A stretch of 49,995 nucleotides of DNA from a virus (Duplodnaviria; Heunggongvirae; Uroviricota; Caudoviricetes). Every line of letters begins with the position of its first letter. Position 1 is the first letter of the stretch. Below the pieces are notes generated by a model that had not been told where the DNA came from, did no database searches, and saw only the letters and a program-made list of their open reading frames with translations. The stretch is taken from IMG/VR virus record IMGVR_UViG_2721755643_000006, positions 1 to 49,995 of that record; one strand, 5' to 3'. The translations under genes were made by a program, and so were the position numbers. Shown piece by piece: positions 20,952 to 36,659 of the stretch.

Positions 20952-22863
20952 TCACTCCTCCGGACAGCTTCGCTGCCAGTTCTTCAAGGGTCGGTTGTGC
21001 AGTTGCATCCTTGCGGGATGCCGCCAGCACAGCCAGATCAAGTTGCCAGCGTTGCACGGACACACGTAATGCCGCATAGGCATACACCAGGCAGTCCAGC
21101 GCTTCGTTACGCCGCTTTTTGTTATCCCACAACAGACGCATCTTTCCTTTTTCCCACTTTTCCACCAGTTCCTCCGCCACCAGTTGTTGTGCCTCTGTCT
21201 GCGAAAAAATCTCCGGATTATCAGGAAAGCGGATGGCATACGATGTGGCCTCATTCACAGGGGTGGGATCGGCCTTCATTCGGGCATAGAGAATTTCTTT
21301 TGCGGTATCCGTCCCCACCTCACACAGATACACACCCCGCTGATTACGGGTTTTCGGCATGGTGATAACTGGCTTGCCATAGACAGATGCGCCTTTCACC
21401 GGCAGCACCCGAAAAACACCGTGTTTTTTCGATCTCTGATAAACGATTTCGCCATCGATCCCCCCGATGTCCCAGCAGATACGGGAAATGGTCATTTCAG
21501 TTCCGTCTGCATGGCGGTATTTTTTGTTGATCGCCGCATCCACACGTAACAGCGTCTCTTCCTCATCAGGTCGTCCCATAATGATGATTTTATCCACCAG
21601 AAAGGCTTCCTCTCCCGGAGCCCATCCCCAGACATACATCTCAAAACGGTTTCGCTGCGAGTCAATACCAGCAGTCAGGTAAACCACCCGGACAGGCACC
21701 GCCGCCGGGTAATGCACAACCTTATCCATCAGCACCTGGTGATCGAGTTTTTCGCCCACGGCCTCTTCCCAGGTCTCCCCCAGTGTGGTGTTTACAAACG
21801 TCTTGACGCCGTTAGGATCCTTCAGTGCATCCAGCCAGTCATAAACAATCTGCGCCCAGGTAGTGAACGGGCTGTACGCCGTCCAGATGTGGAAAGTGAC
21901 AGAACGTGGCGGGGGTATCTCCTCATCACCGACGCTGTAAAATGTCAGGCCGTCACGCGTCCACATCCCGGTATTGTCACAAATCCAGCGCCCCCCGGTC
22001 TGATCAAGTTCAGACTGACGGATCACGCAACCATTATGTTCACACAGGTAATACACCGTTTCCGGTTTGCCTTTCTCCCATTTCAGGCCAAACGGCGTCG
22101 CATCATCGCCAAATTTCAGATACTGCTCCTCCCCGCAATGAGGGCAAGGAACATAAAACCGCATGAAATGTGCAGATTCATTCGCGGCTTTTTCAATCTG
22201 GCAGGAGCCTTTGATTTTTGGCGTTGAACCGCGTATGGATTTTGGCCATACCGAACCTTCAATACGTTTATCGCCAAGCAGTGTTGGCGAACCTTCTTTT
22301 TCCACATCCGGTTCAAACGAGGAGAGTTCGTCATAGCAGACCACATCGACAGATTTTTCACGGTAGTTTTTGGCAGCAGCACCACCCAAACACCAGAACC
22401 CCACACCAGAGGAAAAACGCTTCAGTGTGAGCGTATTATCCCGGTGTTTCCGGCCCAGCCAGGGAGAAAGTTTTTTCAGGCAAGGAACATCACGAATTGT
22501 TGCTTCCACGTGAGACTTCATAAAATCTTCAGCAGCTGAGTCCGTCGGCTGAAAAAGAAGAGTGTTGCGGGATTTGTGCTCAATAAAATACCCGATCACA
22601 CCAAGCACCATTTTTGTATAACCAACACGGGCAGATTTAATCAGGTTAACTGTACGAATCTCGTCATTGCCCATGCAGTTCATGATGGCGACCTGAAACG
22701 GCAGCGTTTTCCATTCCCCCTCACCGTATGACGATTCTTTAGGCAGGTAATAATTTTGATCGGCCCATTCTACAGCCGTCACCGGCAATACCCTGACCAG
22801 TGGCTGCAGTGCGATAGTGACTGCCACCATCATATTACTCAGTTGTTGTTCTGATATATTCAT
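20935..22863 (-). CDS. A: Terminase large subunit A
   Basis: From MNISEQQ the product is colinear with lambda gpA (TAVEWAD.NYYLPKES...FMRF.V.CPHCGEEQYLKFGD...FVNTTLGETWE...ICWDIGGID...EALDCLVYAYAALR). Confidence 0.95.
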   Translation of the reverse strand: MNISEQQLSNMMVAVTIALQPLVRVLPVTAVEWADQNYYLPKESSYGEGEWKTLPFQVAIMNCMGNDEIRTVNLIKSARVGYTKMVLGVIGYFIEHKSRNTLLFQPTDSAAEDFMKSHVEATIRDVPCLKKLSPWLGRKHRDNTLTLKRFSSGVGFWCLGGAAAKNYREKSVDVVCYDELSSFEPDVEKEGSPTLLGDKRIEGSVWPKSIRGSTPKIKGSCQIEKAANESAHFMRFYVPCPHCGEEQYLKFGDDATPFGLKWEKGKPETVYYLCEHNGCVIRQSELDQTGGRWICDNTGMWTRDGLTFYSVGDEEIPPPRSVTFHIWTAYSPFTTWAQIVYDWLDALKDPNGVKTFVNTTLGETWEEAVGEKLDHQVLMDKVVHYPAAVPVRVVYLTAGIDSQRNRFEMYVWGWAPGEEAFLVDKIIIMGRPDEEETLLRVDAAINKKYRHADGTEMTISRICWDIGGIDGEIVYQRSKKHGVFRVLPVKGASVYGKPVITMPKTRNQRGVYLCEVGTDTAKEILYARMKADPTPVNEATSYAIRFPDNPEIFSQTEAQQLVAEELVEKWEKGKMRLLWDNKKRRNEALDCLVYAYAALRVSVQRWQLDLAVLAASRKDATAQPTLEELAAKLSGGVNGYSR

Positions 22864-23344
22864 CGAGTAAATCCGGTAATTTATCCCCCGCACGCGCGCA
22901 CTGATTCGCTCCCTTAGCAATAAGGATTTTCAGATGATCAATATGACGCGGCGTTAAATCCGGGAACTGTCGTTGCATGGACAAAGGAATGGAGTCAAGC
23001 GTACTGGATAAAGCCATCGCCAGCTTACTAAGGGCAAAAATACAAAATCCGCTATCAATAAGATTTCCTTTTGACACCTGATTTTTTAACTGCTGTGCGA
23101 CAGCCTGTTCTGCGGTCAGTTCCCATCTCGCAATGAGTAGTTTCTCTTCATAATCCTCTTCCGGATCACCATCAGGCACATCGTTTTTACTTCTTCTCAG
23201 ATACGATATGTAAAAATCACGCCAGGCATCCAGATCCAGTTGTCCTCGCTTGTTCGAAACCGGGGCACCCGGCAGTTTCTGTAATCTGCGAAGCTGGCGA
23301 TCGGTCAGACTCAAATGCCTGGCAACTTCAGTCTGAGTAGCCAC
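22835..23344 (-). CDS. Nu1: Terminase small subunit Nu1
   Basis: N-terminal winged-HTH (EVARHLSLTDRQLRRL) and C-terminal similarity to lambda Nu1 (GFCIFALSKLA...LDSIPLSMQRQFPDL..RHIDHLK); GTG start with GAGGTG 5 nt upstream; overlaps A start. Confidence 0.8.
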   Translation of the reverse strand: MATQTEVARHLSLTDRQLRRLQKLPGAPVSNKRGQLDLDAWRDFYISYLRRSKNDVPDGDPEEDYEEKLLIARWELTAEQAVAQQLKNQVSKGNLIDSGFCIFALSKLAMALSSTLDSIPLSMQRQFPDLTPRHIDHLKILIAKGANQCARAGDKLPDLLDEYIRTTTE

Positions 23345-23414
23345 TGTTCACCTCGCCAAAAAATCTCCCCTCATGCGTTTTAAACATGCATCTTGCGAAC
23401 AACTTTATGAAACG

Positions 23415-23575
23415 CGGCATATATGTCCGGTTTGAGTGTTCAATTTTTGCGCATGTCCGGTTCGCAGAAAGCACATTTCTATATTTTTCAAATGGTTAAC
23501 CTTCAGAGAAACCGGACATGGTTTCCGAAAAATTTTCATAAATAGTGAAATTCTGCGCCGCTCCCGCCCCGTGGC
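23415..23575 (-). other. cos region: cosN-like end plus cosB-like segment with three CCGGACAT-type repeats
   Basis: Minus-strand sequence GGGGCGGGAGCGG-CGCAGAATTT-CACTATTTATGAAAATTTTT closely parallels the lambda left end (GGGCGGCGACCT-CGCGGGTTTT-CGCTATTTATGAAAATTTTCC), ~215 bp upstream of Nu1; repeats containing CCGGACAT at ~23426, ~23455, ~23511. Confidence 0.55.
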
Positions 23576-23705
23576 AGGCCACCCCACCGGGAGGACCCGT
23601 CAGCCTGACAGCCATGACGAACGTCTGATACAGCGCCCTGCATGAATGACATCGGGATAATCCAGAAAGGAATAGCATCGTACCCACAAGAATCAGTGTA
23701 AGTGT

Positions 23706-23882
23706 CCTGTTTCTTCCACCCCCGCACAGGACTGGCGAGCATGAGGGACAAACCCGCGAACCATAAACGCGGTAAAAACCCGGTGTGCATCGTTTTTGAT
23801 TATTCCCGCACACTCGCGCAGAAGGAGTTCCCCGTCGGGCTACGGTCATGGTTAATGCGGGAATACAGCGACGATACAGCGC
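23706..23882. repeat. 177-bp direct repeat, copy 1 (between cos and the IS)
   Basis: Near-identical to 26408-26584 by direct alignment, only a handful of mismatches. Confidence 0.85.
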
Positions 23883-24069
23883 ATGATGTGTCAGGCCTGA
23901 ATACCTTTATCCGTTAAAAGGGATATCAGTTAAGTTATCCCGTGTAGGGTATAAGCCATTATCAAAGCCACTCAGTAGCGAATGGCTTTTGTAATGGGCT
24001 ATTTAATTAGGCTGTGTCCCTTAATCATCTGAGCTATAGTAACTGTCTGTTTACACAACATATTGAACT

Positions 24070-24519
24070 ATGGCTCGCTACGACCTTCCCGATGAGGCAT
24101 GGACCATCATCAAGCCCCTGTTACCTCCTGAACCCGCCACACCACGGGCCGGACGCCCATGGGCTGAGCACCGTAAAATCATCAATGGCATGTTCTGGGT
24201 GTTATGTTCCGGTGCACCATGGCGCGATTTACCCGAACGATATGGGTCATGGAAAACTGTTTATAACCGCTTTAACCGATGGTCAAAGTCAGGCGTGATT
24301 AATATTATTTTCAACAGGTTGCTTTCGCTACTTGATGCAAACGGCTTTATTGACTGGTCTGCCACCGCGCTGGATGGCAGTAATATCCGGGCGCTGAAAT
24401 GTGCCGCCGGTGCTCAAAAAAACATCCCGATATCGACGGAGATAATGGGCTGGGTCGCTCTCGCGGCGGTTTTGGCACCAAAATCCATCTGGCAACAGAC
24501 GGAAGTGGCCTCCCGTTAA
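24070..24519 (+). CDS. IS transposase OrfA (DUF4096-type N-terminal domain)
   Basis: MARYDLPDEAWTIIKPLLPP...RPWAEHRKIINGMFWVLCSGAPWRDLPERYGSWKTVYNRFNRWSKSGV is the characteristic N-terminal domain of IS5-family transposases. Confidence 0.8.
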   Translation: MARYDLPDEAWTIIKPLLPPEPATPRAGRPWAEHRKIINGMFWVLCSGAPWRDLPERYGSWKTVYNRFNRWSKSGVINIIFNRLLSLLDANGFIDWSATALDGSNIRALKCAAGAQKNIPISTEIMGWVALAAVLAPKSIWQQTEVASR

Positions 24520-24914
24520 ATATCGTGCTAAGCCCCGGACAAGCTCATGAAAGCCAGTTCGCGCAACGACTTCTGGACGGGATTGGCGTTCAGCGTCAGA
24601 ACGGCAGCATGAAACGCCGTGGACATGCGGTACTGGCTGATAAAGCGTATTCAGGGCGCGCATTGCGCAACGAGCTGAAAAATAACGGTATAAAGGCAGT
24701 AATCCCCCGAAAGTCAAATGAGAAAATGGCATCGGATGGACGTGCACAGCTTGATCGTGATGCGTACCGCAATCGTAATGTCGTTGAACGGTGCTTTGGG
24801 CGGCTGAAAGAATATCGCCGCATCGCCACGCGTTACGACAAAACGGCGAGAAATTACCTGGCGATGGTGAAACTGGGCTGCATCCGACTCTTTTATCAAC
24901 GCTTACGTAATTAA
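24399..24914 (+). CDS. IS transposase OrfB (DDE domain), expressed by -1 frameshift fusion
   Basis: DDE-type C-terminal domain ORF overlapping orfA; fusion predicted at the A7 slippery run. Confidence 0.75.
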   Translation: MCRRCSKKHPDIDGDNGLGRSRGGFGTKIHLATDGSGLPLNIVLSPGQAHESQFAQRLLDGIGVQRQNGSMKRRGHAVLADKAYSGRALRNELKNNGIKAVIPRKSNEKMASDGRAQLDRDAYRNRNVVERCFGRLKEYRRIATRYDKTARNYLAMVKLGCIRLFYQRLRN

Positions 24915-25366
24915 GGGACACAGCCTAGTGATGCTGCGTATTCGATTAGATATAACTTAGGTGCCAGCCAGATTTTTAACCATGTCATATTGGCTACTAT
25001 AGAAATAATAAAACTTAACCATAGAATAAAAACTGCTACTAATGGTAAGACAAAAGCACTTAACCTACCGTCACTTTCCCAAATCATAGTCGGTTTGTAT
25101 TTAGGCTGTCCATTATCACATGAGCGTCCGTCATTATCGAACTTACCAATTTCAACTTTTTTGCACTGTTTCTTCATAAACCAAATAACCAGCGGGATTG
25201 TTGAAATGGCTATTAATGTTTTAATCAGGCTATCAACTATATTCCATACCAGCAACTGATGAACAACATCCGGAATCTGAGCCTGACTGAATGCAATGGC
25301 GGAATCAATTCCATCGCTGGCATTGTTCAATAAATCAACAAGAATTTTCTTTGCTTCTTCTTGCAT
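24911..25366 (-). CDS. Small membrane protein with two predicted TM helices; 3' end altered by the IS insertion
   Basis: 151-aa ORF with hydrophobic stretches LIKTLIAISTIPLVIWFM and LSAFVLPLVAVFILWLSFIISIVANM; AGGA 8 nt upstream of ATG; last codons and stop lie inside the IS right inverted repeat; AT-rich. Confidence 0.6.
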   Translation of the reverse strand: MQEEAKKILVDLLNNASDGIDSAIAFSQAQIPDVVHQLLVWNIVDSLIKTLIAISTIPLVIWFMKKQCKKVEIGKFDNDGRSCDNGQPKYKPTMIWESDGRLSAFVLPLVAVFILWLSFIISIVANMTWLKIWLAPKLYLIEYAASLGCVP

Positions 25367-25489
25367 GTATATATCCTGTAAGTTGTAAGCCTGTTCGAAA
25401 AAATAAACAACTACGAGAGACAGAAAAAAATATCTCAGGCTCTCTTTCTATAAGCTTTTAGTTGAGGATGTTCTGCAAAACAAAACTGG

Positions 25490-26350
25490 TTAGTTATGTA
25501 ACTGCTTCTGGAATACAACAGCCGACGTGCTACAACGTAAAATTCGTTTGATTGTGGCAGTTGAGGAAACAGACTTGCATTTCTCAATATCATCAATGAT
25601 GACCACATCCGGTACAGGCATGATGCGGGTATGCAATGTTTTTGCACTAATAACATCACAGCCATTCAGTGGACGAATATCTGCATCTTCAGGCACTACC
25701 AGAAGCACACGTTTCTCCGTTGCAGAAAAGCCAGCAGCAAGAGTTCGCGACAATAAAGTCATTCCACTACGTGGCTTCATACAAATTTCAGAAATATGAT
25801 TTTTTTCGTCCAAATGATGCTGGCCATCATTTTTATCATCACTCAACAACTCTGCTGTTAATACAATCCCTGCTGTCTCAGATTTCCAGGAAATGCTGAT
25901 ATCCTGATCATCTGCATCAACATCATATTTCATCGAGTAAGGACTAAAGCAACGTCCAACGAACGCATCGTTTACCAGTACACGCCCACCCTGTCTGACC
26001 TGAAAGTCAACGCGCCCTGAAAGCTGATTTACTGTTACAAGCAATGCCTTTTTTCTTTTTGTTTTATTACTCATTGCCACAAACTGTTCAGCCATCTCTC
26101 TTGTCACACTACCAGAAACTCTTTCTTGAATTTTCACAGTAAATTTTCTGGATGTAGTAGCATCGACATTAAAAAATCTGGATGTCATTAGGCAGTTATT
26201 AACAATTGGCATCAGCTCACTTACAATTGTAACAAATTCCCGGTAAAGCTCATTTTGCTTTTCAGCACACAGTTTTCCGCAATCGGCCAGCTTAAGCTCA
26301 AGAGCAATTAATCGTTCCATTATTGAATTAATTTTTTGCAACTCTTTCAT
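25490..26350 (-). CDS. Hypothetical 286-aa soluble protein, first gene of cos-proximal cassette
   Basis: ATG at 26348-26350 preceded by AGGAGG with 5-nt spacing; N-terminal coiled-coil-like region; no family recognised; the longer ORF-track version (to 26650) reads through the 177-bp repeat and is an artefact. Confidence 0.65.
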   Translation of the reverse strand: MKELQKINSIMERLIALELKLADCGKLCAEKQNELYREFVTIVSELMPIVNNCLMTSRFFNVDATTSRKFTVKIQERVSGSVTREMAEQFVAMSNKTKRKKALLVTVNQLSGRVDFQVRQGGRVLVNDAFVGRCFSPYSMKYDVDADDQDISISWKSETAGIVLTAELLSDDKNDGQHHLDEKNHISEICMKPRSGMTLLSRTLAAGFSATEKRVLLVVPEDADIRPLNGCDVISAKTLHTRIMPVPDVVIIDDIEKCKSVSSTATIKRILRCSTSAVVFQKQLHN

Positions 26351-26407
26351 CAAAACCTCCTGACAAAGATACCGTGCGACCACGGTCGCACGCTCCTGAA
26401 TACATGC

Positions 26408-26584
26408 CCTGTTTCTTCCACCCTCGCACAGGACTAGCGAGCATGAGGGACAAACCCGCGAATCATTAGCGCGGTAAAAACCCGGTGTGCATCGTTTTTG
26501 ATTATTCCCGCACACTCGCGCAGAAGGAGTTCCCCGTCGGGCTACGGTCATAGTTAATGCGGAAATACGGCGACGATGCAGCGC
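26408..26584. repeat. 177-bp direct repeat, copy 2 (upstream of the cassette)
   Basis: Near-identical to 23706-23882; flanked by two copies of CGACCACG[G/A]TCGCAC (26380-26394, 26599-26613). Confidence 0.85.
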
Positions 26585-26631
26585 GGAATTTAGCGAGCGA
26601 CCACGATCGCACACGAGAAACAAAGAGATTT

Positions 26632-26943
26632 TTATACTGCAGAGGAACAAGCTGGCGGGTAATTCAGCGTAGTGAATACCGGCATCTCCATCTTGTATGC
26701 GTAATGATACTCAGCAGTTGCTCCAGCAGACGCTTTCCAGCCAGGAAGCATCAAAATAGCATCCGCACAACGAAGCATTGCAAAGCAAATATCCATGTAT
26801 TCACGTTGTGTCAGACCATTAGGCAAAGTGGCTGGATTCAAGACAGAGTGACCATGTCGTGACAAACGATCTGCCTCTTTATTAAAGGCGTCACGATTAA
26901 AGTTCTCATATCCCGTCATTGGCCCGGCAATATAAATTTTCAT
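26632..26943 (-). CDS. DUF4406-like protein (nucleoside 2-deoxyribosyltransferase-like fold)
   Basis: MKIYIAGPMTGYENFNRDAF...ADAILMLPGW resembles the phage-associated DUF4406 family; immediately downstream of Rz. Confidence 0.65.
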   Translation of the reverse strand: MKIYIAGPMTGYENFNRDAFNKEADRLSRHGHSVLNPATLPNGLTQREYMDICFAMLRCADAILMLPGWKASAGATAEYHYAYKMEMPVFTTLNYPPACSSAV

Positions 26944-26984
26944 TCACTATCCAACAAATTGAGTTCGTTTTTGATACAGAGGGA

Positions 26985-27452
26985 TTAATTCAGGCATTGC
27001 GTATTGATGTATTCCTGAAGCGTTCTCAGTGCTGTTTGGTCGCGGATAATTCCGTCCCGGATACCGAGAACGTTTCGTCCAGCAACTGAAGAGAGTTCGA
27101 CGGTGGCATCATTGCCCATGCCGGAGGCGCTGGAGGTTTTGGCTGAGGCTGGCACAGGGCATTTTCCTTTGACGAGCACCCGACCACCATTATCAAGCTT
27201 GCGCCGAAGAGCATCATTTTCAGCTTTCGCATCAGCTAACTCCTTCGTGTATTTAGCATCGAGTGCATCAACAGAACGCTGGCGCTGCTGCATGTCAGTA
27301 ATGGTTGCGTTCGCCAGCTTCAGTTCTCTTGCGTTTTTGTCGCGCTGCTCTTTGTAGGTAATGGCGTTATCACGGTAATGATTAACAGCCCATGACAGGC
27401 AGACGATGATGCAGATAACCAGAGCGGAGATAATCGCGGTGACTCTGCTCAT
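26985..27452 (-). CDS. Rz: Spanin inner-membrane subunit Rz
   Basis: [53 protein letters not shown]...[19 protein letters not shown] matches lambda Rz. Confidence 0.92.
27026..27232 (-). CDS. Rz1: Spanin outer-membrane lipoprotein Rz1, embedded in Rz in the +1 frame
   Basis: [21 protein letters not shown] (lipobox) followed by Pro-rich [16 protein letters not shown], as in lambda Rz1. Confidence 0.75.
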
Positions 27453-27982
27453 TGATCTATCCCCCAACAGGCTAATGCGCTTTCCTGGTCACGACGAATA
27501 ACCTGTCCATAGCAGTTATTTGAACGTATGCGGCAATCGCGCCCAACATCTTTTATCCACCAGCGAATCGCCTCGCATGCGCCCTTACGATCACCGGCAT
27601 TCAGCCGCTTATAAAACGTCGACGGGAAACACTTACCGGGGCCAATGTTATAGGGGCAAAATGACGCTATACCCGCTTTTTGTGGTTCGGTCAGTGGTAC
27701 TTTAATATTGCGCTCCACCCATGCCAGCGCCTTATCACGTTCAATGGCGTTAACCTGGTCGCATTTTTCCTTCGACAGTTTCATACCGGGAAAAACGGGT
27801 TTACCATCCACCATCGTGGCACCCCGACAGATGGTCCAGATGCCGGAACCATCGCGGTATGCCGTAGTGTGGTTACCTTCTTTTTCATCCAGAAACTGGT
27901 CGAGAATATCAGGCGCAGGCGCACCGATAGCAATCAGTGCCAGAACGGCAGCCGACAGGCCATATCTGATTTTTACGTTCAT
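27449..27982 (-). CDS. R: Endolysin R, T4-lysozyme-like with N-terminal SAR/signal-anchor segment (phage 21 R-type)
   Basis: Hydrophobic N-terminus then lysozyme-like region ([20 protein letters not shown]); stop overlaps Rz start. Confidence 0.88.
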
Positions 27983-28303
27983 GGATATTTATCAGGATTT
28001 ATCGGCTTCAAATCCCCGGATATGTTAAATCTTACCTCGCCAGTGATGGGCACTGGCGGGAGGAGGATGTCAATCTGATAAACACAGAGGTGACTACGGA
28101 TTACACAAATCTACCAAAACAAACTTTTGCTGATTTAATCGCACTCAGGCAAGCAGTCGTAGCTCTAATCAACTTGTTGCCGGAGAAGGAAAAGGAATTA
28201 GTTAAAGCGCTTCTTAACAGAACTGCCGCCGATTTTTCATCATATCCACTGACAGATGACCTTGCGGACCTTCCTGAATTAATTGCAGCGTCCGCCATTA
28301 AGC

Positions 28304-28834
28304 TTACTGAAGAGATTTACCCTCCTCAAAAATCTTCACAAAATTCCTGCGAGTAACTTCAATGCAATAATCGTAAAACGCCGCAAACTGCTCATCGCGG
28401 CGTTTTTTTTCATCTTCAGAAGGAATCAGCACCGACAATTTTTTCTCCAGTTTTTCAATGGGCGATTCAATATCATCTTTTTCTGACCGCAATGCCGTCG
28501 GTGGCGTCTTCAGAGAACCAGTAATTCTTCCCGGTAGCTTTCCTTTGTAGGTTATCCACACATTCTGCGCCTCTAAAATTATGGGGCGCTTTTCCGGCGA
28601 CTGCTCATCCCCTTCACATAACCCGGCAGCAACATCCAGGAATACCTGTCTGATTCTCATTCTGGCCGCTGCCTCATAAAACTCCAGCGCGGCACCTTCA
28701 ACACGGTCCAGCGAGATGTCCAGGTCAAAAATTTCACCGTCAAAGCGTTTTTTGTCCCGTAACGCTAAAGTTACCGCAACTTTATTCTCAAAATTGCGGA
28801 TCCCTTTCACAATCAGTTCATAGTTTTGTGTCAT
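28304..28834 (-). CDS. Conserved lysis-cassette protein between holin and endolysin (YdfR-like), function unknown
   Basis: 176-aa ORF; N-terminus MTQNYELIVKGIRNFENKVAVTLALRDKKRFDGEIFDLDISLDRVEGAALEFYEAAAR resembles E. coli Qin YdfR as far as memory allows; position mirrors essQ-ydfR-rrrQ. Confidence 0.55.
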   Translation of the reverse strand: MTQNYELIVKGIRNFENKVAVTLALRDKKRFDGEIFDLDISLDRVEGAALEFYEAAARMRIRQVFLDVAAGLCEGDEQSPEKRPIILEAQNVWITYKGKLPGRITGSLKTPPTALRSEKDDIESPIEKLEKKLSVLIPSEDEKKRRDEQFAAFYDYCIEVTRRNFVKIFEEGKSLQ

Positions 28835-28838
28835 TGAA

Positions 28839-29054
28839 TTACTCTCCCCGCGCAGCCTTACGCTTGTCTTCTCTTATTTTGAAATACAGATTCGTCAGAT
28901 AAGTCAGAAGCCCCAGAAGCAGACTTCCCAGCACACCAATCGCAGCCCACTGTGATGGACTGACCTGATCCAACCACTGCAAAAACCAGTAGCCGGCACT
29001 GCCGGCGGAGGTGCCGTAGGCAATGCCTGTTGATATTTTTTCCATCTGATACAT
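28839..29054 (-). CDS. S: Pinholin, phage 21 S-type, with dual-start motif
   Basis: 71 aa; [62 protein letters not shown] matches S21; Met1 and Met4 (MYQMEK) as in S71/S68. Confidence 0.88.
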
Positions 29055-29091
29055 ATCCCGCCCCCCGACAGACCTGTGCTATCGGAAAGAA

Positions 29092-29125
29092 AAAAGGCCA
29101 TCAGCAAAACTCTGATGGCCTGAAT
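29092..29125 (-). terminator. Rho-independent terminator just upstream of the lysis genes
   Basis: Minus-strand hairpin GGCCATCAG-AGTTTTG-CTGATGGCC followed by TTTTTTCTTTCC, ~40 bp upstream of the holin start. Confidence 0.6.
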
Positions 29126-29734
29126 CACCTTTACCAATATTGTATGAAAAAACACGCACGACTAATTGACAATAATTTTCATTTCCATTAAAAAAGATCG
29201 CGTAGCATTCTTAATTCATGAGGAACTTTACCCGCCAGCAATCTGAGTAGCGAAAGCTGTTCATCCCCAATGTTTTTGCTGGCGGGTCCTTTTTTCTACG
29301 GTCCTCCTCCCCGGAGGGGGGCATTTCATTATTTTTCTAATCGTTACTGGTGAGAAGGCGGAAGAAAAAGCCAGTTCTTCGCCCCTAAATAACAGCATGA
29401 TTCCAGTCCATGCAAAATCTGATTTCCAGCTCACACATACCGAGCGCTGTACAAAAAACCGCCAGCCAAGGCAGTTAAGAGTGTGTTCCCGGGGTTTGCT
29501 TAGAATATTTTGTAAGTTGTCCGAAGAGATATTTACAACACCAGAATGATGAATCATCAGTCCCCTGCCAGAGGTTCACTACGTAACCTGACCGACAATG
29601 CACCATTCTGGTGCTGAAAAAAGAGCACTGGAACTGCAACAAAACAACATCACAGAACAGGAGATGGTAAGGAGTCAGACATTCCCACACAATATTGTGT
29701 CAGTGCAAATAACAACCTTCGTCTCAAATCTCGC

Positions 29735-29809
<75 letters not shown>

Positions 29810-29812
29810 ATA

Positions 29813-29888
<76 letters not shown>

Positions 29889-29890
29889 GC

Positions 29891-29967
29891 TGGCCCACCA
29901 CCGAGGACTCGAACCTCGCACCGTCAACTTAGAAGGTTGATGCTCTATCCGGATGAGCTAGTGGTGG
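29891..29967 (-). tRNA. tRNA-Arg (anticodon TCT)
   Basis: 77-nt cloverleaf: anticodon stem TCAAC/GTTGA, loop CTTCTAA, T-arm CGAGG-TTCGAGT-CCTCG, CCA end. Confidence 0.75.
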
Positions 29968-29968
29968 T

Positions 29969-30044
29969 TGGTGGCCCTTGCTGGACTTGAACCAGCGACC
30001 TGGCGATTATGAGTCGCTCGCTCTCACCACTGAGCTAAAGGGCC
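29969..30044 (-). tRNA. tRNA with CAT anticodon, ileX/ileZ-like (Ile2 or Met)
   Basis: GGCCCTTTAGCTCAGTGGT.AGAGC...GACTCATAATCGC...GGTCGCTGGTTCAAGTCCAGCA.GGGCCACCA is nearly identical to E. coli tRNA-Ile2 as recalled. Confidence 0.8.
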
Positions 30045-30084
30045 GATAACATAATGATAACGTTACAGAATAAATTCAGCAATA

Positions 30085-31143
30085 TCACTCTCTCTTTCTG
30101 ATTGAATTCTGTACATCTCTTGCGGTCTGCTCAAAACGTTCAGCCTCCAGCTCGACACCAATTGCACGACGCCCCAGCGCCATCGCTGCTTTGACTGTCG
30201 AACCGGACCCCATGAAGAAATCTGCAACCAGGTCACCCGGACGACTGCTGGCGGTAATCATTTGCCGCAACATATCTGCCGGTTTTTCACAGGGATGTTT
30301 GCCCGGATAATACTGCACAGGCTTGTGCGTCCAGACATCCGTATAAGGAACGGCTGCCGATACGGAAAAATAACGCCGCAGGGATTTGTACTCTTCCAGC
30401 AGGCTGGCATACTGCCGGTTCAGCTCACTGTATGTGCTGACCAGTTGGTGATGTGGCTTTTCCAGTTCACCCCGCTGATGTTTCTCTTCTGCCACCCGGG
30501 CAAACAGCACCTGAAGTTTTCTGTAATCATCCTCGTTCGGTAACTGCCACTGGCTGGCACTGAACCAGTGCGACACCATGTTTTTCTTTCCTGAGACATC
30601 AGCAATCTGTTTTGCCGTTATCCCCAGAGCCGCACGCGCATCACGAAAGTAAGAAATCAGCGGAGCCATCACATGCTGTTTCAGTGCCCTGCCCTTCGCC
30701 TCATAGCCATCATCTTTTGGACGATACGGCCCCTGATAATGTTCCGCGAACAGAATGCGCTCTGTGGCGGGGAAATACGCCCGCAGGCTTTCCTTGTTGC
30801 ACCCGTTCCAGCGCCCGGACGGCTTCGCCCAGATAATGTGGTTCAGCACATTAAAGTGCTCACGCATCATGATTTCGATATCAGATGCCAGGCGATGACC
30901 ACAGAACAGGTAGAGACTTCCGGCAGGCTTCAGTACCCGCCAGAATTGCGCCAGACACTGATCCAGCCATTTCAGGTAATCCTCGTCGCCCTTCCACTGG
31001 TTATCCCAGCCCTCGGGCTTCACTTTAAAGTATGGCGGGTCTGTGACTATCAGATCGACAGAGTTTTCCGGTAAGGTCTGGATAAATTCCAGGCAATCAG
31101 CGTTGATTAACTCACAACTGGATATTTTTACAGTATTAGTCAT
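30085..31143 (-). CDS. Orphan DNA methyltransferase (N6-adenine/N4-cytosine, DPPY motif)
   Basis: N-terminal motif IV VTDPPYF followed later by SAM-binding FFMGSGST; no adjacent restriction gene. Confidence 0.85.
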   Translation of the reverse strand: MTNTVKISSCELINADCLEFIQTLPENSVDLIVTDPPYFKVKPEGWDNQWKGDEDYLKWLDQCLAQFWRVLKPAGSLYLFCGHRLASDIEIMMREHFNVLNHIIWAKPSGRWNGCNKESLRAYFPATERILFAEHYQGPYRPKDDGYEAKGRALKQHVMAPLISYFRDARAALGITAKQIADVSGKKNMVSHWFSASQWQLPNEDDYRKLQVLFARVAEEKHQRGELEKPHHQLVSTYSELNRQYASLLEEYKSLRRYFSVSAAVPYTDVWTHKPVQYYPGKHPCEKPADMLRQMITASSRPGDLVADFFMGSGSTVKAAMALGRRAIGVELEAERFEQTARDVQNSIRKRE

Positions 31144-32544: not shown

Positions 32545-32940
32545 CTACATGATTCGTTCTACGTATCTGTCCATCTCCAGTCGGATATCAAGCATCATCA
32601 ACATGCCATCAATAACCCCTTCCGCTTTCTGCAGGCGCTTGCCAATACAGGTATCCGAACACCCATGCTTTCGTGCCAGCCCCATAAAAGTCATTCCACC
32701 TACGTAATAATCCACCAACAAATCGTGCAAATCCTGATTTTTCTTGTTCAACCGGGCCATACAGCCACAAATTATCATTGCATCATCATCAGAACACTGA
32801 GGGCGTGATTTCACTTTCGGCGGGATTAATCCTTTAAAACCAGCAGCTATTGACGCCCATGACACATCTTCGTGATTGTTTGCAGCCCATGCTCCCCACC
32901 GCTCCATAACCTGCTGAATATCACGCACCATCGTTATCAC
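32545..32940 (-). CDS. Q: Late-gene antiterminator Q (DLP12 QuuD-type)
   Basis: [60 protein letters not shown]...[37 protein letters not shown] matches QuuD as recalled. Confidence 0.8.
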
Positions 32941-33299
32941 CTGTAATTTCGTAAATCTTCACACCCAGCCGCCCCCCCAGGAACGAGCTGACCGCGCACA
33001 ATATTGATTTCATCAAACTGCTCGTCGTCTATGAGAAGTCCGGCATGCGTCAGCGCATCCAGTGGTGCTTTCAGGATATTGTCCAGGTCACGACGACGTT
33101 TATCCGGTGGCTCTGCAATCACCTTTATCGCCAGCCTTCCGGACAGGCTTAATTTCAACTGCTGCTGGCGAACAATAAGCGCCACATCACGGCGATAACG
33201 CTTTCCGGCTTCCGAGATGAAATACGTATTGCCATGACGTCGCCAGTAGGTATTCACCGTCGGCGGGTAAGGCAAAACAAATTCTATGCGTTCGGTCAT
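32937..33299 (-). CDS. rusA: Holliday junction resolvase RusA
   Basis: 120 aa; [28 protein letters not shown] matches the RusA active-site region. Confidence 0.88.
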
Positions 33300-34358
33300 T
33301 CATGCTTTCCACTTCAGGACACCCGAATTTCTCGCGTGCATTAAAAAACGAATCAGCAACAACAGCTGGCTGCCGTGTTTTTCTTCAAAATCTTTTACCC
33401 CGGTGTGCAGTTCGTTATGACATTTACGGCACAACGGAATAACAAACAAATCGTCAGCCTTTGTTCCCATCCCTCCCAGTCCATGACCAATGATGTGATG
33501 CGGATCATCTGCCTGATTGCCACACGTCATGCATTTCTGCGTTTTTACCCAGCGCGTGTATACAGGCATCTCTTCCCGTTGTGGTTTCTGGCGCTGGAGA
33601 TACTGAGCCGGAGATTCCGGATCAACGGCAATGCTGACCACCGTCTCTTCCTGTGGTGGATTCTGTTGCTGGTGGACGTGAGGCGGTAGCGCAATATTTT
33701 TTGTGCGCTGCTTTAGTATGCTGGTGGCAGTCTGCTCTCCCGGTATGATGTCGCTTTCGCGGTACACTGAGCGGATTTTTTCCGCACGCAACCCCAGAGA
33801 ACGACGTAATACTGCCTCCGGTAGCGCGTCCGCCACCTGATTGCAGACCGCCCACCAGGATAATTCAGCCAGCGATAATTCCCGCTCCTGCGTGCCATTC
33901 ACTGCATGGCGTATGACGTCAATCATCCATGCTGACAGGTTTTGATGAGCAAGTTGCCCGAGTGATTCGGATGTCTGGTCACGCAGCTGGTTGTCGCAGT
34001 GCCAGCACAACACCATCGCGCCGGTACCATAACGATGTATGACGATTTCACTGTGATGATAGTCACCATGAGGCCACTGGCAGGATTTAACATGACGCAG
34101 GAGCCAGTCAGACAGTGCACCAGCGCCGCAGGCAGCACGAACCACCCGCTCATCGCTGAAAAATGGCAGCAGAGATTTGTCTTCCGCCAGCGGCTGGCGA
34201 ACGGCAGGAACGACCCCGGACGGCAGACCGCGCATGCTTTTTGGTTCCGGTTCAACCAGCACTCTGCCGTTATGGAATACCTGCATGGATTCACGGCCTG
34301 GCTTAACGATAACCACCCCAAGTTCCGGTACCAGAACAGGTCGAAGTAATACCCGCAC
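33300..34358 (-). CDS. DUF968-family protein with HNH-like Cys/His C-terminus (YdfU-like)
   Basis: C-terminal CMTCGNQADDPHHIIGHGLGGMGTKADDLFVIPLCRKCHNELH; typical nin-region gene. Confidence 0.65.
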   Translation of the reverse strand: MRVLLRPVLVPELGVVIVKPGRESMQVFHNGRVLVEPEPKSMRGLPSGVVPAVRQPLAEDKSLLPFFSDERVVRAACGAGALSDWLLRHVKSCQWPHGDYHHSEIVIHRYGTGAMVLCWHCDNQLRDQTSESLGQLAHQNLSAWMIDVIRHAVNGTQERELSLAELSWWAVCNQVADALPEAVLRRSLGLRAEKIRSVYRESDIIPGEQTATSILKQRTKNIALPPHVHQQQNPPQEETVVSIAVDPESPAQYLQRQKPQREEMPVYTRWVKTQKCMTCGNQADDPHHIIGHGLGGMGTKADDLFVIPLCRKCHNELHTGVKDFEEKHGSQLLLLIRFLMHARNSGVLKWKA

Positions 34359-34359
34359 G

Positions 34360-34638
34360 TTACCTCCAGATGCGTTGCTGGAATATGCGGGACGGACGCG
34401 GTGGGCGTTCGGAGTAAGGGAGTCTGACTGAGATTATCCAGTGACGGTAGTCGAGGCTAAGAGCTTTCTTAACCTCGTATCCGCGCCTGCGGTAACACTG
34501 AATTATCCATTCCGCCTGCTCTTCAGTGCATGGAGGATGCTGGAACCAGTCTGATTTGAATGCGTGAAAACGCCGTCCGCACCTACTGGCAAAGACGGCA
34601 GAATCATTAGAATTGTGTAATTTGGTATCGTGCGCCAT
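34360..34638 (-). CDS. Hypothetical protein (nin-region)
   Basis: 92-aa ORF from MAHDTKLHNS; weak ribosome-binding site; no family recognised. Confidence 0.4.
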   Translation of the reverse strand: MAHDTKLHNSNDSAVFASRCGRRFHAFKSDWFQHPPCTEEQAEWIIQCYRRRGYEVKKALSLDYRHWIISVRLPYSERPPRPSRIFQQRIWR

Positions 34639-34805
34639 CGGTTGTCTCTGCTGGCGCAGCAGGTGCCAGTTGTTCAGGCTGGCGTGCGAATTGTAAACCA
34701 GAATGCCAGGAAAAAACAAAACCCGCCGAAGCGGGTTACGTGCGGGTGCGTTGAGGATGCCTGACACATCAGAGGTGGCGAGGGATTTCTCCCTCGCCTG
34801 GTCTC

Positions 34806-34961
34806 TTACTCCTCAGGTTCGTAAGCTGTGAAGACAGCGACCTCCGTCTGGCCGGTTCGGATTCGTACCTCGCAGAGGTCTTCCCTCGTTACCAGTGCCG
34901 TCACTATGACGGTTAAACAGATGACGATCAGGGCGACTAACATCGCCTTTTGCTGCTTCAT
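34806..34961 (-). CDS. hok: Hok/Gef-family type I toxin
   Basis: MKQQKAMLVALIVICLTVIVTALVTREDLCEVRIRTGQTEVAVFTAYEPEE is nearly identical to E. coli HokD/RelF. Confidence 0.88.
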   Translation of the reverse strand: MKQQKAMLVALIVICLTVIVTALVTREDLCEVRIRTGQTEVAVFTAYEPEE

Positions 34962-35296
34962 AGCCTGCTTCTCCTTGCCTTCCGGCACGTAAGAGGCTAA
35001 CCTACATTTGTGAGACATAGATTGGGCCTCAGATTAATGTTAAGCGTCCTGCAAGACGCGTAATGTTAACTGGGGCTTTTCTCTGTCTGCCTTACAGTGG
35101 CATGCCCGAGGCAGACAGCCTCAAGCACCCGCAGCCATTCTACTTAACCTTTTAGCTGTTTCCAACATTTTATCTTTGCACCAAAATTCGCTCGCAACCT
35201 ATCGATAAATCTAGAATTTTTAAATTAATAGATTGCAATAACATGCGATGTTCTCTTTAACCAAAATCAGGTCACACAAAAACCATTCTACAATTT

Positions 35297-35331
35297 TTGT
35301 TGACTAATTATCTGATAATGGTTTAATGTAT
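35297..35331 (+). promoter_or_regulatory. Candidate sigma70 promoter for the XRE/ImmA cassette
   Basis: TTGACT, 17-bp spacer, TTAATG/TAATGT in a very AT-rich leader ~45 bp upstream of the AGGAGG site. Confidence 0.4.
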
Positions 35332-35376
35332 CTTCAATGGTAGTAAAAGACTACCTCCCTTGATTAGGAGGTCACA

Positions 35377-35733
35377 ATGCAAGTTACAGCTCTTGGTAGG
35401 TTCTTACGGAAAATCCGTATTGATAAAGATCAGATATTGAAAGACATGGCAGAAAAACTTGGTGTGAGTGTCGCTCAACTTTCTGCAATTGAATTAGGTA
35501 AGCGTTCAATATCTGCTGATTTTGTAGACAAATTCATGAACGTTTATGCAGACACAGTCATCAGCAGAGATGATTTTCAATGTCTGGTGGACGTATCTCA
35601 ACCAGTTCATAAAGAAGATTTTAAGAATACTTCTTACAAGCACCGAGAATTGTTCGTCACCTTTGCGCGTAAGTATAAAGAGCTTCCAGAAAGTGAAGCA
35701 AATGACTGGCTTGAGAAGATAAAAAAAATGTAA
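35377..35733 (+). CDS. XRE-family helix-turn-helix transcriptional regulator
   Basis: N-terminal HTH (LRKIRIDKDQILKDMAEKLGVSVAQLSAIELGKRSIS); AGGAGG 7 nt upstream of ATG. Confidence 0.8.
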   Translation: MQVTALGRFLRKIRIDKDQILKDMAEKLGVSVAQLSAIELGKRSISADFVDKFMNVYADTVISRDDFQCLVDVSQPVHKEDFKNTSYKHRELFVTFARKYKELPESEANDWLEKIKKM

Positions 35734-35747
35734 GGTCAAAGTCAAAG

Positions 35748-36305
35748 ATGAAACAAAAGCGATTACTGTGTAATAAAGTAAATTTTATTGCTCCTCAAAC
35801 CATATGGAAAGTTGCTGCCGCCGCGCGCCAAAAAGCAAGGCAGTATCTCCCAGCGACATCGGATCCTTCAATTGACATTGTTAGGTTATTAGACAGGCTA
35901 AACGATACCGGTGCAATTTCGATGGAAATTTGTGAAATTCATGAAATGCCGCATGAGTATGCTAAGGCAAGACCTGCATTAGGCGAGTTATACGTACGTA
36001 AAGACACTTACATTAATGCAGCAAACGGCGTACCACGTGATCGTTTTACTCTGGCTCACGAATTAGGGCATTTAATTCTTCATGCGGATGTTACGCCTGA
36101 ATTTGCTTTCTCACAGACATCCTCCAATCATGACTTTAGAGAGGACGCAGAATGGCAAGCAAACGAATTTGCCGCTTGGTTCCTGGTTGATCCGCAAGAG
36201 AAAGAGATGATCAAAACCCCAAAAGAAATTGCTGTTAACTTCAAAGTTAGCCATGAAGTCGCAGGGATCTTGTGGAGGAAATTTCGTGAAAACCAGATCA
36301 TTTAA
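35748..36305 (+). CDS. ImmA/IrrE-family zinc metallopeptidase (COG2856-like)
   Basis: HEXXH motif in LAHELGHLILH with a downstream conserved Glu region (EWQANEFAAWFL); immediately follows the XRE gene. Confidence 0.8.
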   Translation: MKQKRLLCNKVNFIAPQTIWKVAAAARQKARQYLPATSDPSIDIVRLLDRLNDTGAISMEICEIHEMPHEYAKARPALGELYVRKDTYINAANGVPRDRFTLAHELGHLILHADVTPEFAFSQTSSNHDFREDAEWQANEFAAWFLVDPQEKEMIKTPKEIAVNFKVSHEVAGILWRKFRENQII

Positions 36306-36466
36306 TCGGCAAAAGAGCGCCAACTCTTTTGCCGATAAGGATAACGATTCTGAGAGCTTACTCACCGCTCTTAGAGCATCACTACCCGCCTACTTAATGA
36401 TTCACACCTTTAGTGTAGGCGTTTTGGTGATGACTTGTAAAGGTGAGATTTACAGGAAATCAAACC

Positions 36467-36610
36467 ATGACTACAGAAATGAACGCCAAAGGCGAAGAAG
36501 TTGTGATTGTGTTTACCCCGTACATTACTCGTGGTGGTAAACGTATTTTTAAGAAAGATGGTGGATATTATCGTCTAGAAATTCCTAAAGACAAGTACCG
36601 CCAGCGATGA
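36467..36610 (+). CDS. Small basic protein (47 aa), third ORF of the XRE/ImmA cassette
   Basis: MTTEMNAKGEEVVIVFTPYITRGGKRIFKKDGGYYRLEIPKDKYRQR; AGGAAA upstream; followed by a terminator; below the ORF-track length cutoff. Confidence 0.4.
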   Translation: MTTEMNAKGEEVVIVFTPYITRGGKRIFKKDGGYYRLEIPKDKYRQR

Positions 36611-36627
36611 GCAGCTAATGATGATCT

Positions 36628-36650: not shown

Positions 36651-36659
36651 GTAGTCATA

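What the first reader, a model, noticed from the sequence alone, without database searches (positions are those of the whole stretch)
24911..26350. AT-rich two-gene cassette (286-aa soluble protein plus 2-TM membrane protein) between the lysis genes and cos: candidate undescribed exclusion/defence module
Between Rz/DUF4406 and cos, where lambdoid phages carry variable cargo, there is an AT-rich operon on the late strand. The first gene (25490-26350) has AGGAGG 5 nt from its ATG and a coiled-coil-like N-terminus but no motif I can assign to any enzyme or known defence family (no nucleotidyltransferase GS..DxD, no Walker box, no nuclease motif). The second gene (24911-25366) encodes a 151-aa protein with two clear TM helices. 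A cytoplasmic protein plus a small membrane protein is the architecture of abortive-infection pairs such as RexA/RexB or cyclase plus 2-TM effector systems, yet neither protein resembles those by eye. A perfect palindrome GTGCGACC-AC-GGTCGCAC (26377-26394) sits ~25 bp upstream of the start, suggesting repressor control. The cassette is bracketed by 177-bp direct repeats and an IS, consistent with horizontally acquired cargo.
Basis: partly seen in the sequence, partly recalled or inferred. Interest (0 to 1): 0.82.

Follow-up and report, generated by a model that had tools for sequence, protein, structure and literature searches.

The report
Two stacked orphan phage cargo genes
The AT-rich cassette is real, but it is two separate accessory genes stacked in a decaying lambda-like prophage rather than a matched defence pair: a small membrane protein common in many phages, and a rare E. 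coli-only protein inserted just upstream of it; neither has a known function.

Summary
The sequence features are there. Gene A (25490-26350, 286 aa, soluble) and gene B (24911-25366, two transmembrane helices) lie on the late strand between Rz/DUF4406 and cos. The cassette is 38% GC against 51% for the window. An IS5-family element has replaced the last three residues of B.

Neither protein matches Pfam, NCBIfam or PADLOC. Both fall in PHROGs of unknown function.

The two-gene-system reading does not hold.
- B belongs to a large family (1289 clusters, including Sf6 gene 34). Without A it occurs in the early-left operon of P22-like and lambda-like phages, at the slot where sieB sits, and in virulent N4-like, phi92-like and Vibrio phages.
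- A is confined to Escherichia/Shigella. It is a discrete 959-bp insertion into the leader of B, and a B-only locus carries an identical B protein.
- The palindrome lies at the module boundary upstream of B and is imperfect elsewhere.
- A ends in a small P-loop-fold domain whose Walker A lysine is methionine.

Both genes are under purifying selection.

Best guess (inferred): B acts alone at the inner membrane during lytic growth, possibly in superinfection exclusion, and A is an accessory late protein. This is an ordinary moron locus with untested candidates.

The parts
25490..26350 (-). Gene A, 286 aa, soluble. It has an N-terminal helical hairpin (residues 1-56), a beta-sandwich (about 100-170) and a C-terminal minimal P-loop-fold domain (about 186-286) with PRSGMT and VVIIDD motifs. 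PHROG 2571, function unknown. Restricted to Escherichia/Shigella.
26356..26361 (-). Shine-Dalgarno AGGAGG of gene A, 5 nt before the ATG.
26374..26391 (.). Perfect 18-nt palindrome GTGCGACC-AC-GGTCGCAC. On the late strand it forms a hairpin followed by GTATCTTTGT, 11 nt before A's RBS. It is the boundary element that lies upstream of B in A-less loci.
   Evidence: Exact coordinates; terminator-like call; the same element, imperfect, lies upstream of B in L013 and upstream of A in L021.
26591..26612 (.). Second, imperfect copy (86%) of the palindromic 22-mer, just after the DUF4406 stop codon. With the 22-mer at 26370-26391 it brackets repeat copy 2.
   Evidence: family D4; sequence read
26405..26584 (.). 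Upstream copy of the 180-nt direct repeat. It is a duplicate of the conserved pre-cos segment and is absent from cassette loci of the HNH type.
25367..25489 (-). 123-nt A-B spacer. Its distal 87 nt belong to the A insertion. The proximal part is B's native leader, with RBS AGGA.
24926..25366 (-). Native part of gene B (residues 1-147 of 149), a two-pass inner-membrane protein. PHROG 3054 / Sf6 gene 34 family. The N-terminal segment (1-42) and C-terminal segment (125-149) are conserved; the TM1-loop-TM2 region is variable.
   Evidence: (6.5e-54)
24911..24925 (-). IS-derived tail of the B ORF (GCVP plus stop), replacing the native IK-stop.
24010..24925 (+). IS5-family (ISSfl7-like) insertion sequence. 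It has terminal inverted repeats, a two-ORF transposase with a programmed frameshift, and a TA target duplication at 24008-24009 and 24926-24927.
   Evidence: Inverted repeats (I1); Pfam DUF4096 and DDE_Tnp_1; RefSeq annotation; junctions; the identical insertion is present in 3 genomes.
23964..23989 (-). Weak hairpin (AAAGCCA...TGGCTTT) that natively follows B's stop codon. The IS has displaced it from B. It did not meet the terminator scan's criteria in the window or in the intact B-only locus.
   Evidence: Sequence read. The equivalent position in early-left-operon copies carries a clear GC hairpin plus T-run.
23703..23882 (.). Downstream copy of the 180-nt repeat. This is the conserved segment about 100 nt before cos, present in most lambdoid prophages.
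   Evidence: (4140 of 5426 genomes matched the 3.7-kb query, most of them through this segment)

Best explanation
SHOWN: the region is a composite of two independent accessory (moron-type) genes in the variable Rz-cos slot of a defective lambdoid prophage.

Gene B is a self-contained module. It consists of a short leader, a 149-aa two-pass membrane protein and a trailing hairpin. It belongs to a large uncharacterised phage family that also sits in the early-left operon of P22-like and lambda-like phages (the position sieB occupies) and in virulent N4-like, phi92-like and Vibrio phages.

Gene A is an Escherichia-restricted orphan inserted as a 959-bp unit between the boundary hairpin and B's leader. 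It combines a helical hairpin, a beta-sandwich that it shares with another late-region chimera, and a minimal P-loop-fold domain whose Walker A lysine is methionine.

Both genes are under purifying selection. In this window an IS has clipped B's conserved C-terminus, and the prophage is decaying.

INFERRED:
- Both genes lack promoter-like sites and, in the early-left copies, lie between terminator-like hairpins. They are therefore probably expressed only from antiterminated lytic transcripts (Q-dependent here, N-dependent in the early-left copies).
- B most likely works alone at the inner membrane during lytic development, through its conserved N- and C-terminal juxtamembrane segments. The most probable role is superinfection exclusion or membrane protection. 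I put that functional reading at about 0.3 on its own.
- A is a non-catalytic accessory late protein of unknown role. It is not an obligate partner of B.
For: Family sizes:
- B: 481 hits with the single sequence and 1289 with a profile, across Enterobacteriaceae; 176-179 phage records, including virulent phages.
- A: 15 hits, all Escherichia; 12 among 1.84 billion representatives.

Contexts of B without A:
- N, SieB (opposite strand), B, then variable genes, in Salmonella prophages.
- N, B, then a P22_Y8K6 gene.
- Sf6: N, ral, gene 34, tL2A.
- Lambda-like: N, ral, B, DUF2528, cIII.
- Rz, HNH remnant, B, TonB_C-domain gene, Nu1.
- Early region of an N4-like phage; phi92-like and Vibrio phages.

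A as an indel: L013 against L021 differ by a 959-nt insertion flanked by TGTC(TCTC). B is WP_059328172.1 in both.

Expression signals: hairpins flank Sf6 gene 34 (5 terminator-like sites against 0.8 expected). No promoter-like site precedes B or A.

Conservation: the N- and C-terminal segments of B are conserved down to the 42%-identical N4-like homologue.

Selection: dN/dS is 0.25 for A and 0.1-0.3 for distant B pairs.

Against: - No phenotype, expression or topology data exist. The exclusion role rests only on genomic position and analogy.
- Every intact copy of A is followed by B, which is also what a functional dependence of A on B would give.
- In phi92-like phages the B homologue is followed by an AAA+ ATPase. 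Recurrent pairing of B with NTPase-type partners therefore cannot be ruled out.
- The consensus promoter scan is crude and could miss weak or non-sigma-70 promoters.
- Close cassette-linked B alleles show dN/dS of 0.5-1.2 and a mosaic structure. That pattern would suit an arms-race (defence) gene.
- The P-loop assignment rests on a model with mean pLDDT 70 and on sequence matches that are not significant (E 0.4-0.7).
Confidence: 0.45

Rival explanations
1. A and B form a two-gene abortive-infection or exclusion system. Cytoplasmic A senses infection and gates the membrane protein B, as in RexA/RexB or cyclase plus 2-TM effector systems.
For: The genes are adjacent on the same strand in AT-rich cargo. 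Every intact A is followed by B. A has an NTPase-like fold, which is common in sensors. In phi92-like phages a B homologue sits next to an AAA+/STAND-like ATPase. The cassette-linked B alleles are fast-evolving and mosaic.
Against: B is found without A in the great majority of contexts and hosts, including virulent phages. A is a 959-bp indel, and the B protein is identical with or without it. There is no PADLOC hit. A's Walker A lysine is methionine in all homologues. No promoter-like site for lysogenic expression was found. A is frameshifted or truncated in several carriers.
Confidence: 0.12
2. Lysis accessory. B (and perhaps A) modulates holin, endolysin or spanin action or lysis timing, given its place at the end of the lysis cassette.
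For: The cassette lies directly downstream of S-R-Rz in the late operon. B is a small two-TM protein, like class II holins and antiholins. A's beta-domain recurs in a protein encoded next to holin genes.
Against: Most B homologues are in early operons (next to N, ral or sieB) or in early regions of virulent phages. A holin-like activity there would be premature. There is no holin-family Pfam or PHROG match. The carrier phages have their own complete lysis genes.
Confidence: 0.12
3. A is a phage counter-defence or host-takeover protein: a catalytically dead P-loop decoy expressed late. B is an unrelated neighbour.
For: A has a degenerate Walker A in a P-loop fold. By inference it is expressed only late. 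It is a narrow, recently spread orphan, which is typical of anti-defence genes.
Against: There is no similarity to any known anti-defence protein. Late expression is a poor time to counter most defences. A decays often in prophages. The idea is purely speculative.
Confidence: 0.08
4. Functionless passenger DNA. The cassette hitch-hikes between two 180-nt repeats and is simply decaying.
For: The prophage is defective (J, tail fibre, lom and rusA are frameshifted). An IS sits in B. A is frameshifted in FDAARGOS_943. There are deletion remnants elsewhere. The flanking repeats allow easy gain and loss.
Against: dN/dS is well below 1 for both genes. B's terminal segments are conserved across very distant phages. 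Intact copies occur in the deposited phage genome PhiR46_1 and on 42-48 kb plasmids of the size of N15-like plasmid prophages.
Confidence: 0.1

Closest known systems
Sf6 gene 34 protein / PHROG 3054 (also in HK639, HK633, CUS-3, SPN9CC, N4-like and phi92-like phages)
   Same: B is a sequence member (6.5e-54 to the PHROG; 40-45% identity to Sf6 gp34). It shares the two TM helices and the conserved N-terminal and WLKIWxAPKLxLIEYAASL motifs.
   Different: Here the gene sits in the late Rz-cos slot instead of the early-left operon, is preceded by gene A, and is clipped by an IS. The family has no known function.
SieB (lambda/P22 superinfection exclusion, Pfam PF14163)
   Same: B occupies the slot where sieB sits, downstream of N and ral in the early-left operon, or lies next to SieB. 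Both are small membrane proteins.
   Different: There is no homology (hhalign probability 0.3%; no Pfam hit). I recall SieB as a prophage-expressed abortive system. No expression or phenotype data exist for B.
RexA/RexB of lambda
   Same: A soluble protein plus a membrane protein encoded side by side in a lambdoid phage.
   Different: No sequence match in PADLOC or Pfam. As I recall, RexB has four TM helices and rexAB are co-transcribed with cI in the lysogen. Here the partners are not co-inherited and no promoter-like site was found.
Small inner-membrane exclusion proteins such as T4 Imm and HK97 gp15 (moron-encoded)
   Same: Analogy only. These are short membrane proteins, carried as accessory genes by temperate or virulent phages, that act at the DNA-entry step (from my own knowledge; the moron concept is reviewed in PMC3594210).
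   Different: No sequence relationship was tested or found. The function of B is untested.
P-loop NTPases (RecA-like helicase domains; cystovirus P4; BY-kinase Wzc)
   Different: The domain is only about 100 residues. The Walker A lysine is methionine in every homologue. No Pfam P-loop family matches. The sequence matches are not significant.
Classical lambdoid morons (for example lambda bor/lom and the HK97 morons)
   Same: AT-rich inserts that are present or absent at a fixed slot between conserved genes and are bounded by hairpins.
   Different: No promoter of its own was detected. Two morons are nested here, and one carries an IS.

Membership tests
Two-gene abortive-infection/defence system (RexAB-like, sensor plus 2-TM effector) | The two genes are co-inherited across genomes | tested here: not met
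   B occurs without A in hundreds of contexts. A is a 959-bp indel next to a gene for an identical B protein. Only the reverse holds: every intact A has B.
Two-gene abortive-infection/defence system (RexAB-like, sensor plus 2-TM effector) | Homology to a catalogued defence protein | tested here: not met
   PADLOC-DB 2.0.0 gave no hit at E<=1 for either protein. Six accession numbers were absent from the DefensePredictor supplements. Newer catalogues were not available.
Two-gene abortive-infection/defence system (RexAB-like, sensor plus 2-TM effector) | Expression in the lysogen from its own promoter | tested here: inconclusive
   The consensus scan finds no promoter-like site upstream of A or B. 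Only 11 nt separate the hairpin from A's RBS. The scan is crude and there are no RNA data.
Two-gene abortive-infection/defence system (RexAB-like, sensor plus 2-TM effector) | Protects cells against phage | not testable with these tools
   Needs cloning and a phage challenge.
Moron (independent accessory insert in a phage genome) | Present in some and absent in other related phages at the same site | tested here: met
   Full cassette in 28 of 5426 genomes; B-only and empty variants occur in the same Rz-cos slot.
Moron (independent accessory insert in a phage genome) | Base composition unlike the flanking phage DNA | tested here: met
   38.4% GC against 51.0%.
Moron (independent accessory insert in a phage genome) | Its own promoter and terminator | tested here: inconclusive
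   A clear terminator-like hairpin follows B in the early-left-operon copies. The late-slot hairpin is weak and was not called by the scan. No sigma-70-like promoter was found.
PHROG 3054 / Sf6 gp34 family (gene B) | Significant full-length sequence match | tested here: met
   6.5e-54 over residues 1-147. tblastn to Sf6 gene 34 gives 2e-22 to 1e-26.
PHROG 3054 / Sf6 gp34 family (gene B) | Two TM helices with conserved N- and C-terminal segments | tested here: met
   Hydropathy; alignment. In this window the C-terminal three residues are replaced by IS-derived residues.
Active P-loop NTPase (gene A, C-terminal domain) | P-loop/RecA-like alpha-beta fold | tested here: met
Active P-loop NTPase (gene A, C-terminal domain) | Walker A GxxxxGK[ST] | tested here: not met
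   The sequence is KPRSGMT. M197 and T198 are invariant in all homologues. The methionine aligns with the Walker A lysine of cystovirus P4.
Active P-loop NTPase (gene A, C-terminal domain) | Walker B hhhhD[DE] | tested here: met
   VVIIDD is invariant and aligns with the Walker B of cystovirus P4.
Holin / antiholin | Encoded in the lysis cassette and expressed late only | tested here: not met
   Most family members lie in early operons or in early regions of virulent phages. No holin-family match.
SieB family | Sequence or profile similarity to PF14163 | tested here: not met
   No Pfam hit. hhalign probability 0.3% against a Salmonella SieB.

The most novel reading that the evidence does not exclude
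The B family (Sf6 gp34 / PHROG 3054) is a widespread, undescribed class of phage inner-membrane proteins that block entry or development of competing phages. It would be used by both temperate and virulent phages. In the Escherichia cassette, the catalytically dead P-loop protein A has been recruited as an adaptor that gates or retargets B. The B-plus-AAA+ ATPase pair in phi92-like phages would be a parallel case. That would make the cassette a new modular membrane-effector system.
Probability: 0.12. Interest if true: 0.65.

Novelty: new member of a known kind. Interest (0 to 1): 0.3.

Why it matters
If B proves to be an exclusion or membrane-protection factor, a family of more than a thousand protein clusters would gain a function. 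The family spans lambdoid, P22-like, N4-like, phi92-like and Vibrio phages and is annotated everywhere as hypothetical. A natural series already exists for testing whether A modifies B: loci with B alone, with A plus B, and with an IS-clipped B. As it stands, the locus mainly illustrates how morons nest inside one another at the Rz-cos hotspot, and it shows that gene adjacency alone is weak evidence for a two-gene defence system.

Tried and rejected
- Pfam, NCBIfam and PADLOC scans of A and B, whole and by domain, gave nothing usable.
- The afdb50 Foldseek library was unavailable.
- An HMM search of PDB sequences with A and B profiles gave only non-significant hits.
- B against SieB by hhalign: unrelated.
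- A against the phi92 gp221 AAA+ ATPase by BLASTP: unrelated.
- Rfam on 22000-30500 found only the four tRNAs, plus antisense-tRNA artefacts.
- RNA folding of the 180-nt repeat on both strands gave z-scores of about 0, so I dropped the structured-RNA idea.
- The palindrome as an operator: rejected. It is imperfect through changes in one arm only in other loci, and it precedes B where A is absent.
- The 386-aa upstream TTG start for A: rejected. Homologues start at MKELQK, and the upstream sequence differs in L021.
- Literature searches for Sf6 gp34, for sieB-slot genes and for the RefSeq accession numbers found no functional study.
- The Brenes and Laub 2025 paper on ECOR prophage defences could not be retrieved.
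- The DefensePredictor supplements do not list six of the accession numbers.
Full report
ORIGIN. The window is the reverse complement of E. coli CFSAN029787 chromosome NZ_CP011416.1, 4109354-4159348. It holds a lambdoid prophage whose late genes run on the window's minus strand. In order these are Q, a methyltransferase, four tRNAs, a holin, a DUF1327 gene, a lysozyme, Rz, DUF4406, the cassette, cos, Nu1/terminase, and the head and tail genes. RefSeq marks J, a tail-tip gene, lom, a tail-fibre gene and rusA as frameshifted, so the prophage is defective.

OBSERVATION. A is 25490-26350 (286 aa). AGGAGG lies 5 nt before its ATG. B is 24911-25366 (151 aa). A has no hydrophobic segment, and B has two (residues 43-65 and 99-132). 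The cassette is 38.4% GC against 51.0% for the window.

There are four corrections.
- The perfect palindrome is at 26374-26391, 3 nt from the stated position.
- The direct repeats are 180 nt at 94% identity (23703-23882 and 26405-26584).
- A 916-bp IS5-family (ISSfl7-like) element (24010-24925, TA duplication) has replaced B's last three residues. The intact protein ends ...EYAASLIK.
- A and B are 123 nt apart, so 'operon' is an assumption.

DATABASE STATUS. Neither protein matches Pfam, NCBIfam or PADLOC, even at permissive thresholds. Both belong to PHROGs of unknown function: A to phrog_2571 (4.3e-156) and B to phrog_3054 (6.5e-54). Every public annotation I saw reads 'hypothetical protein'. 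I found no functional literature.

THE TWO GENES HAVE VERY DIFFERENT DISTRIBUTIONS. A has 15 relatives among 5.8 billion clustered proteins. All those named are from Escherichia, and the full-length ones are at least 80% identical. An exhaustive HMMER pass over 1.84 billion representatives found only 12 hits, mostly fragments.

B has 481 relatives with the single sequence and 1289 with a profile. They come from Salmonella, Cronobacter, Citrobacter, Klebsiella, Pantoea and other genera. It also matches 176-179 phage records, including Sf6 gene 34, CUS-3, HK639, HK633, SPN9CC, virulent N4-like (Schitoviridae) phages, phi92-like myoviruses and Vibrio phages.

CONTEXT OF B WITHOUT A.
- In Salmonella P22-like prophages, B (66% identical) follows the N gene. 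SieB lies between them on the opposite strand, and B is followed by different genes in different prophages: a pentapeptide-repeat protein or an HNH endonuclease.
- In E. coli P22-like prophages, B follows N and precedes a P22_Y8K6 gene.
- In Sf6 the order is N, ral, gene 34, tL2A.
- In a lambda-like prophage the order is N, ral, B, DUF2528, cIII, kil, gam, bet, exo.
- At the same Rz-cos slot in strain 135, B follows an HNH remnant and precedes a TonB_C-domain gene. A is absent.
- In the N4-like phage FSL SP-076, B lies among early-region genes near the phage RNA polymerase genes.

B is therefore an autonomous module that moves between accessory slots.

A IS AN INSERTION INTO B'S LEADER. TUM1886 (HNH remnant, A, B) and strain 135 (HNH remnant, B) encode the identical B protein, WP_059328172.1. 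They align continuously except for 959 nt that hold A.

At the junction, strain 135 reads ...GTGCGACCGTGGTTGCTCGGTATCTTTGTCTCTCTTGG..., followed by B's leader. TUM1886 reads ...GGTATCTTTGTC[AGGAGG-A-...TTTTTTCTG]TCTCTCGTAG..., followed by B's leader. The indel is thus flanked by a short TGTC(TCTC) repeat.

The scan scores it as terminator-like, although such sites are no more frequent in the region than in shuffled sequence. Only 11 nt separate it from A's RBS, and no promoter-like site precedes A or B.

Wherever B is missing, A is 3'-truncated, which points to deletion remnants. In FDAARGOS_943, A is split by a frameshift.

THE REPEATS. The downstream 180-nt copy is the conserved segment about 100 nt before cos that most lambdoid prophages carry. 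The upstream copy exists only in DUF4406-type carriers and is missing from HNH-type carriers. The repeats therefore reflect how the cassette recombined into this backbone and are not part of the cassette itself. The segment shows no unusual RNA folding (z about 0 on both strands) and has no Rfam match.

EXPRESSION (INFERENCE). In the early-left copies, B is bracketed by terminator-like hairpins. Sf6 has five such sites in 1.1 kb against 0.8 expected, and no promoter-like site on the gene's strand. Together with B's presence in virulent phages, this suggests expression from antiterminated lytic transcripts: N-dependent in the early-left operon and Q-dependent here. It does not suggest expression in the repressed lysogen.

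SELECTION. A in the window against the other alleles has 17 synonymous and 16 non-synonymous differences (dN/dS 0.25). Distant B pairs give 0.1-0.3. Close cassette-linked B alleles give 0.5-1.2. They are mosaic: the TM1-loop-TM2 region varies, while residues 1-42 and 125-149 are conserved even in the 42%-identical N4-like homologue. Lys and Arg counts weakly favour a cytoplasmic loop, which would place both conserved ends in the periplasm. This is not decisive.

- A beta-sandwich (residues about 100-170).

HMM alignments to PDB sequences are not significant (E 0.4-0.7). They do place SGMT on the Walker A of cystovirus P4 (GGKT) and on IGMT in the Wzc chain of 3LA6, which I recall as the K540M mutant. 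They also place VVIIDD on P4's Walker B. M197 and T198 are invariant. A thus carries a P-loop-fold domain with a natural Lys-to-Met change and is unlikely to hydrolyse ATP.

The beta-sandwich is homologous (E 5.6e-7, 34% identity) to the N-terminus of a 181-aa chimera. The C-terminus of that chimera matches the tail of the window's own DUF1327 protein (28304-28834), and the chimera is encoded between Q and the holins of another prophage.

INTERPRETATION. The data establish two nested, independently inherited accessory genes. They do not establish a co-evolved pair. The most likely function is inferred only: B acts alone at the inner membrane during lytic development, for example in superinfection exclusion. 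This would fit its sieB-slot location and its spread among virulent phages. A would be a non-catalytic late accessory protein.

Every intact A has B, and phi92-like phages place an AAA+ ATPase next to their B homologue. It is disfavoured by the distribution data.

A lysis role is unlikely, given how often B sits in early operons. Pure junk is unlikely, given purifying selection.

Distribution of the full cassette: 28 of 5426 complete E. coli genomes, and 19 of the 25 matching plasmids. All 25 plasmids are non-mobilizable and 38-81 kb, and many are of the size of N15-like plasmid prophages. Their hosts are E. coli, E. albertii and S. sonnei.

Noticed in passing
window 23703-23882 and 26405-26584: The 180-nt repeat is a conserved segment just before cos. 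It occurs in lambda-type, mEp460-type and Stx phages, and 4140 of 5426 complete E. coli genomes matched the 3.7-kb query, most of them through this segment. RefSeq annotates a 58-aa ORF on the opposite strand (WP_001205133.1) that has no family. RNA folding is unremarkable and there is no Rfam hit. Its role is unknown.
   Followed up: partly
window 28304-28834 (-): A DUF1327/YdfR-type gene between holin and lysozyme has a long C-terminal extension. RefSeq calls it an incomplete pseudogene. Its last ~60 residues recur in P0144, a chimera that carries the beta-sandwich of gene A and is encoded between Q and the holins in another prophage (L016). This suggests domain shuffling among late-region accessory proteins.
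   Followed up: partly
window 26632-26943 (-): A DUF4406 protein (3.7e-34), with weaker matches to nucleoside 2-deoxyribosyltransferase families, is encoded in the late operon right after Rz. It is present in only some cassette carriers.
   Followed up: no
L023 2483-4059 (Escherichia phage Paula, phi92-like): The B homologue (Phi92_gp220) is immediately followed by an AAA+ ATPase (Phi92_gp221; Pfam AAA 1.5e-9, with sub-threshold STAND NTPase matches). It is unrelated in sequence to gene A. This is a second case of a B-family gene next to an NTPase-fold protein.
   Followed up: partly
L001/L002/L018/L019/L020, gene B: B alleles linked to nearly identical A genes differ strongly. dS reaches 0.25 and dN/dS is 0.5-1.2, concentrated in the TM1-loop-TM2 region. 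This suggests recombination with early-left-operon alleles or diversifying selection.
   Followed up: partly
window 29738-30044 (-): Four tRNA genes (Ile, Arg, Thr and Gly by RefSeq) lie upstream of the holin. The Rfam 'Plastid-ycf2' hits on the + strand are antisense-tRNA artefacts below the gathering score.
   Followed up: yes
window 24010-24925: The ISSfl7-like IS5-family insertion into the 3' end of B is shared, at 100% identity, by three genomes only (CFSAN029787, RMDEC364, VL46). It is therefore recent. FDAARGOS_943 and VL7S7 carry the same cassette without it.
   Followed up: yes
window 1-7470 and 32900-45000: RefSeq marks J, tail-tip, lom, tail-fibre and rusA genes as frameshifted. A frameshifted ipaH effector gene abuts the prophage. 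The early region carries relBE, hokD, a YdaT-family toxin, ImmA/IrrE plus an HTH protein, and dicB.
   Followed up: no
window 23480-23600 (-): The sequence CACTATTTATGAAAATTTTTCGG resembles, from memory, lambda's CGCTATTTATGAAAATTTTCCGG next to cosN. It was not tested with a tool.
   Followed up: no
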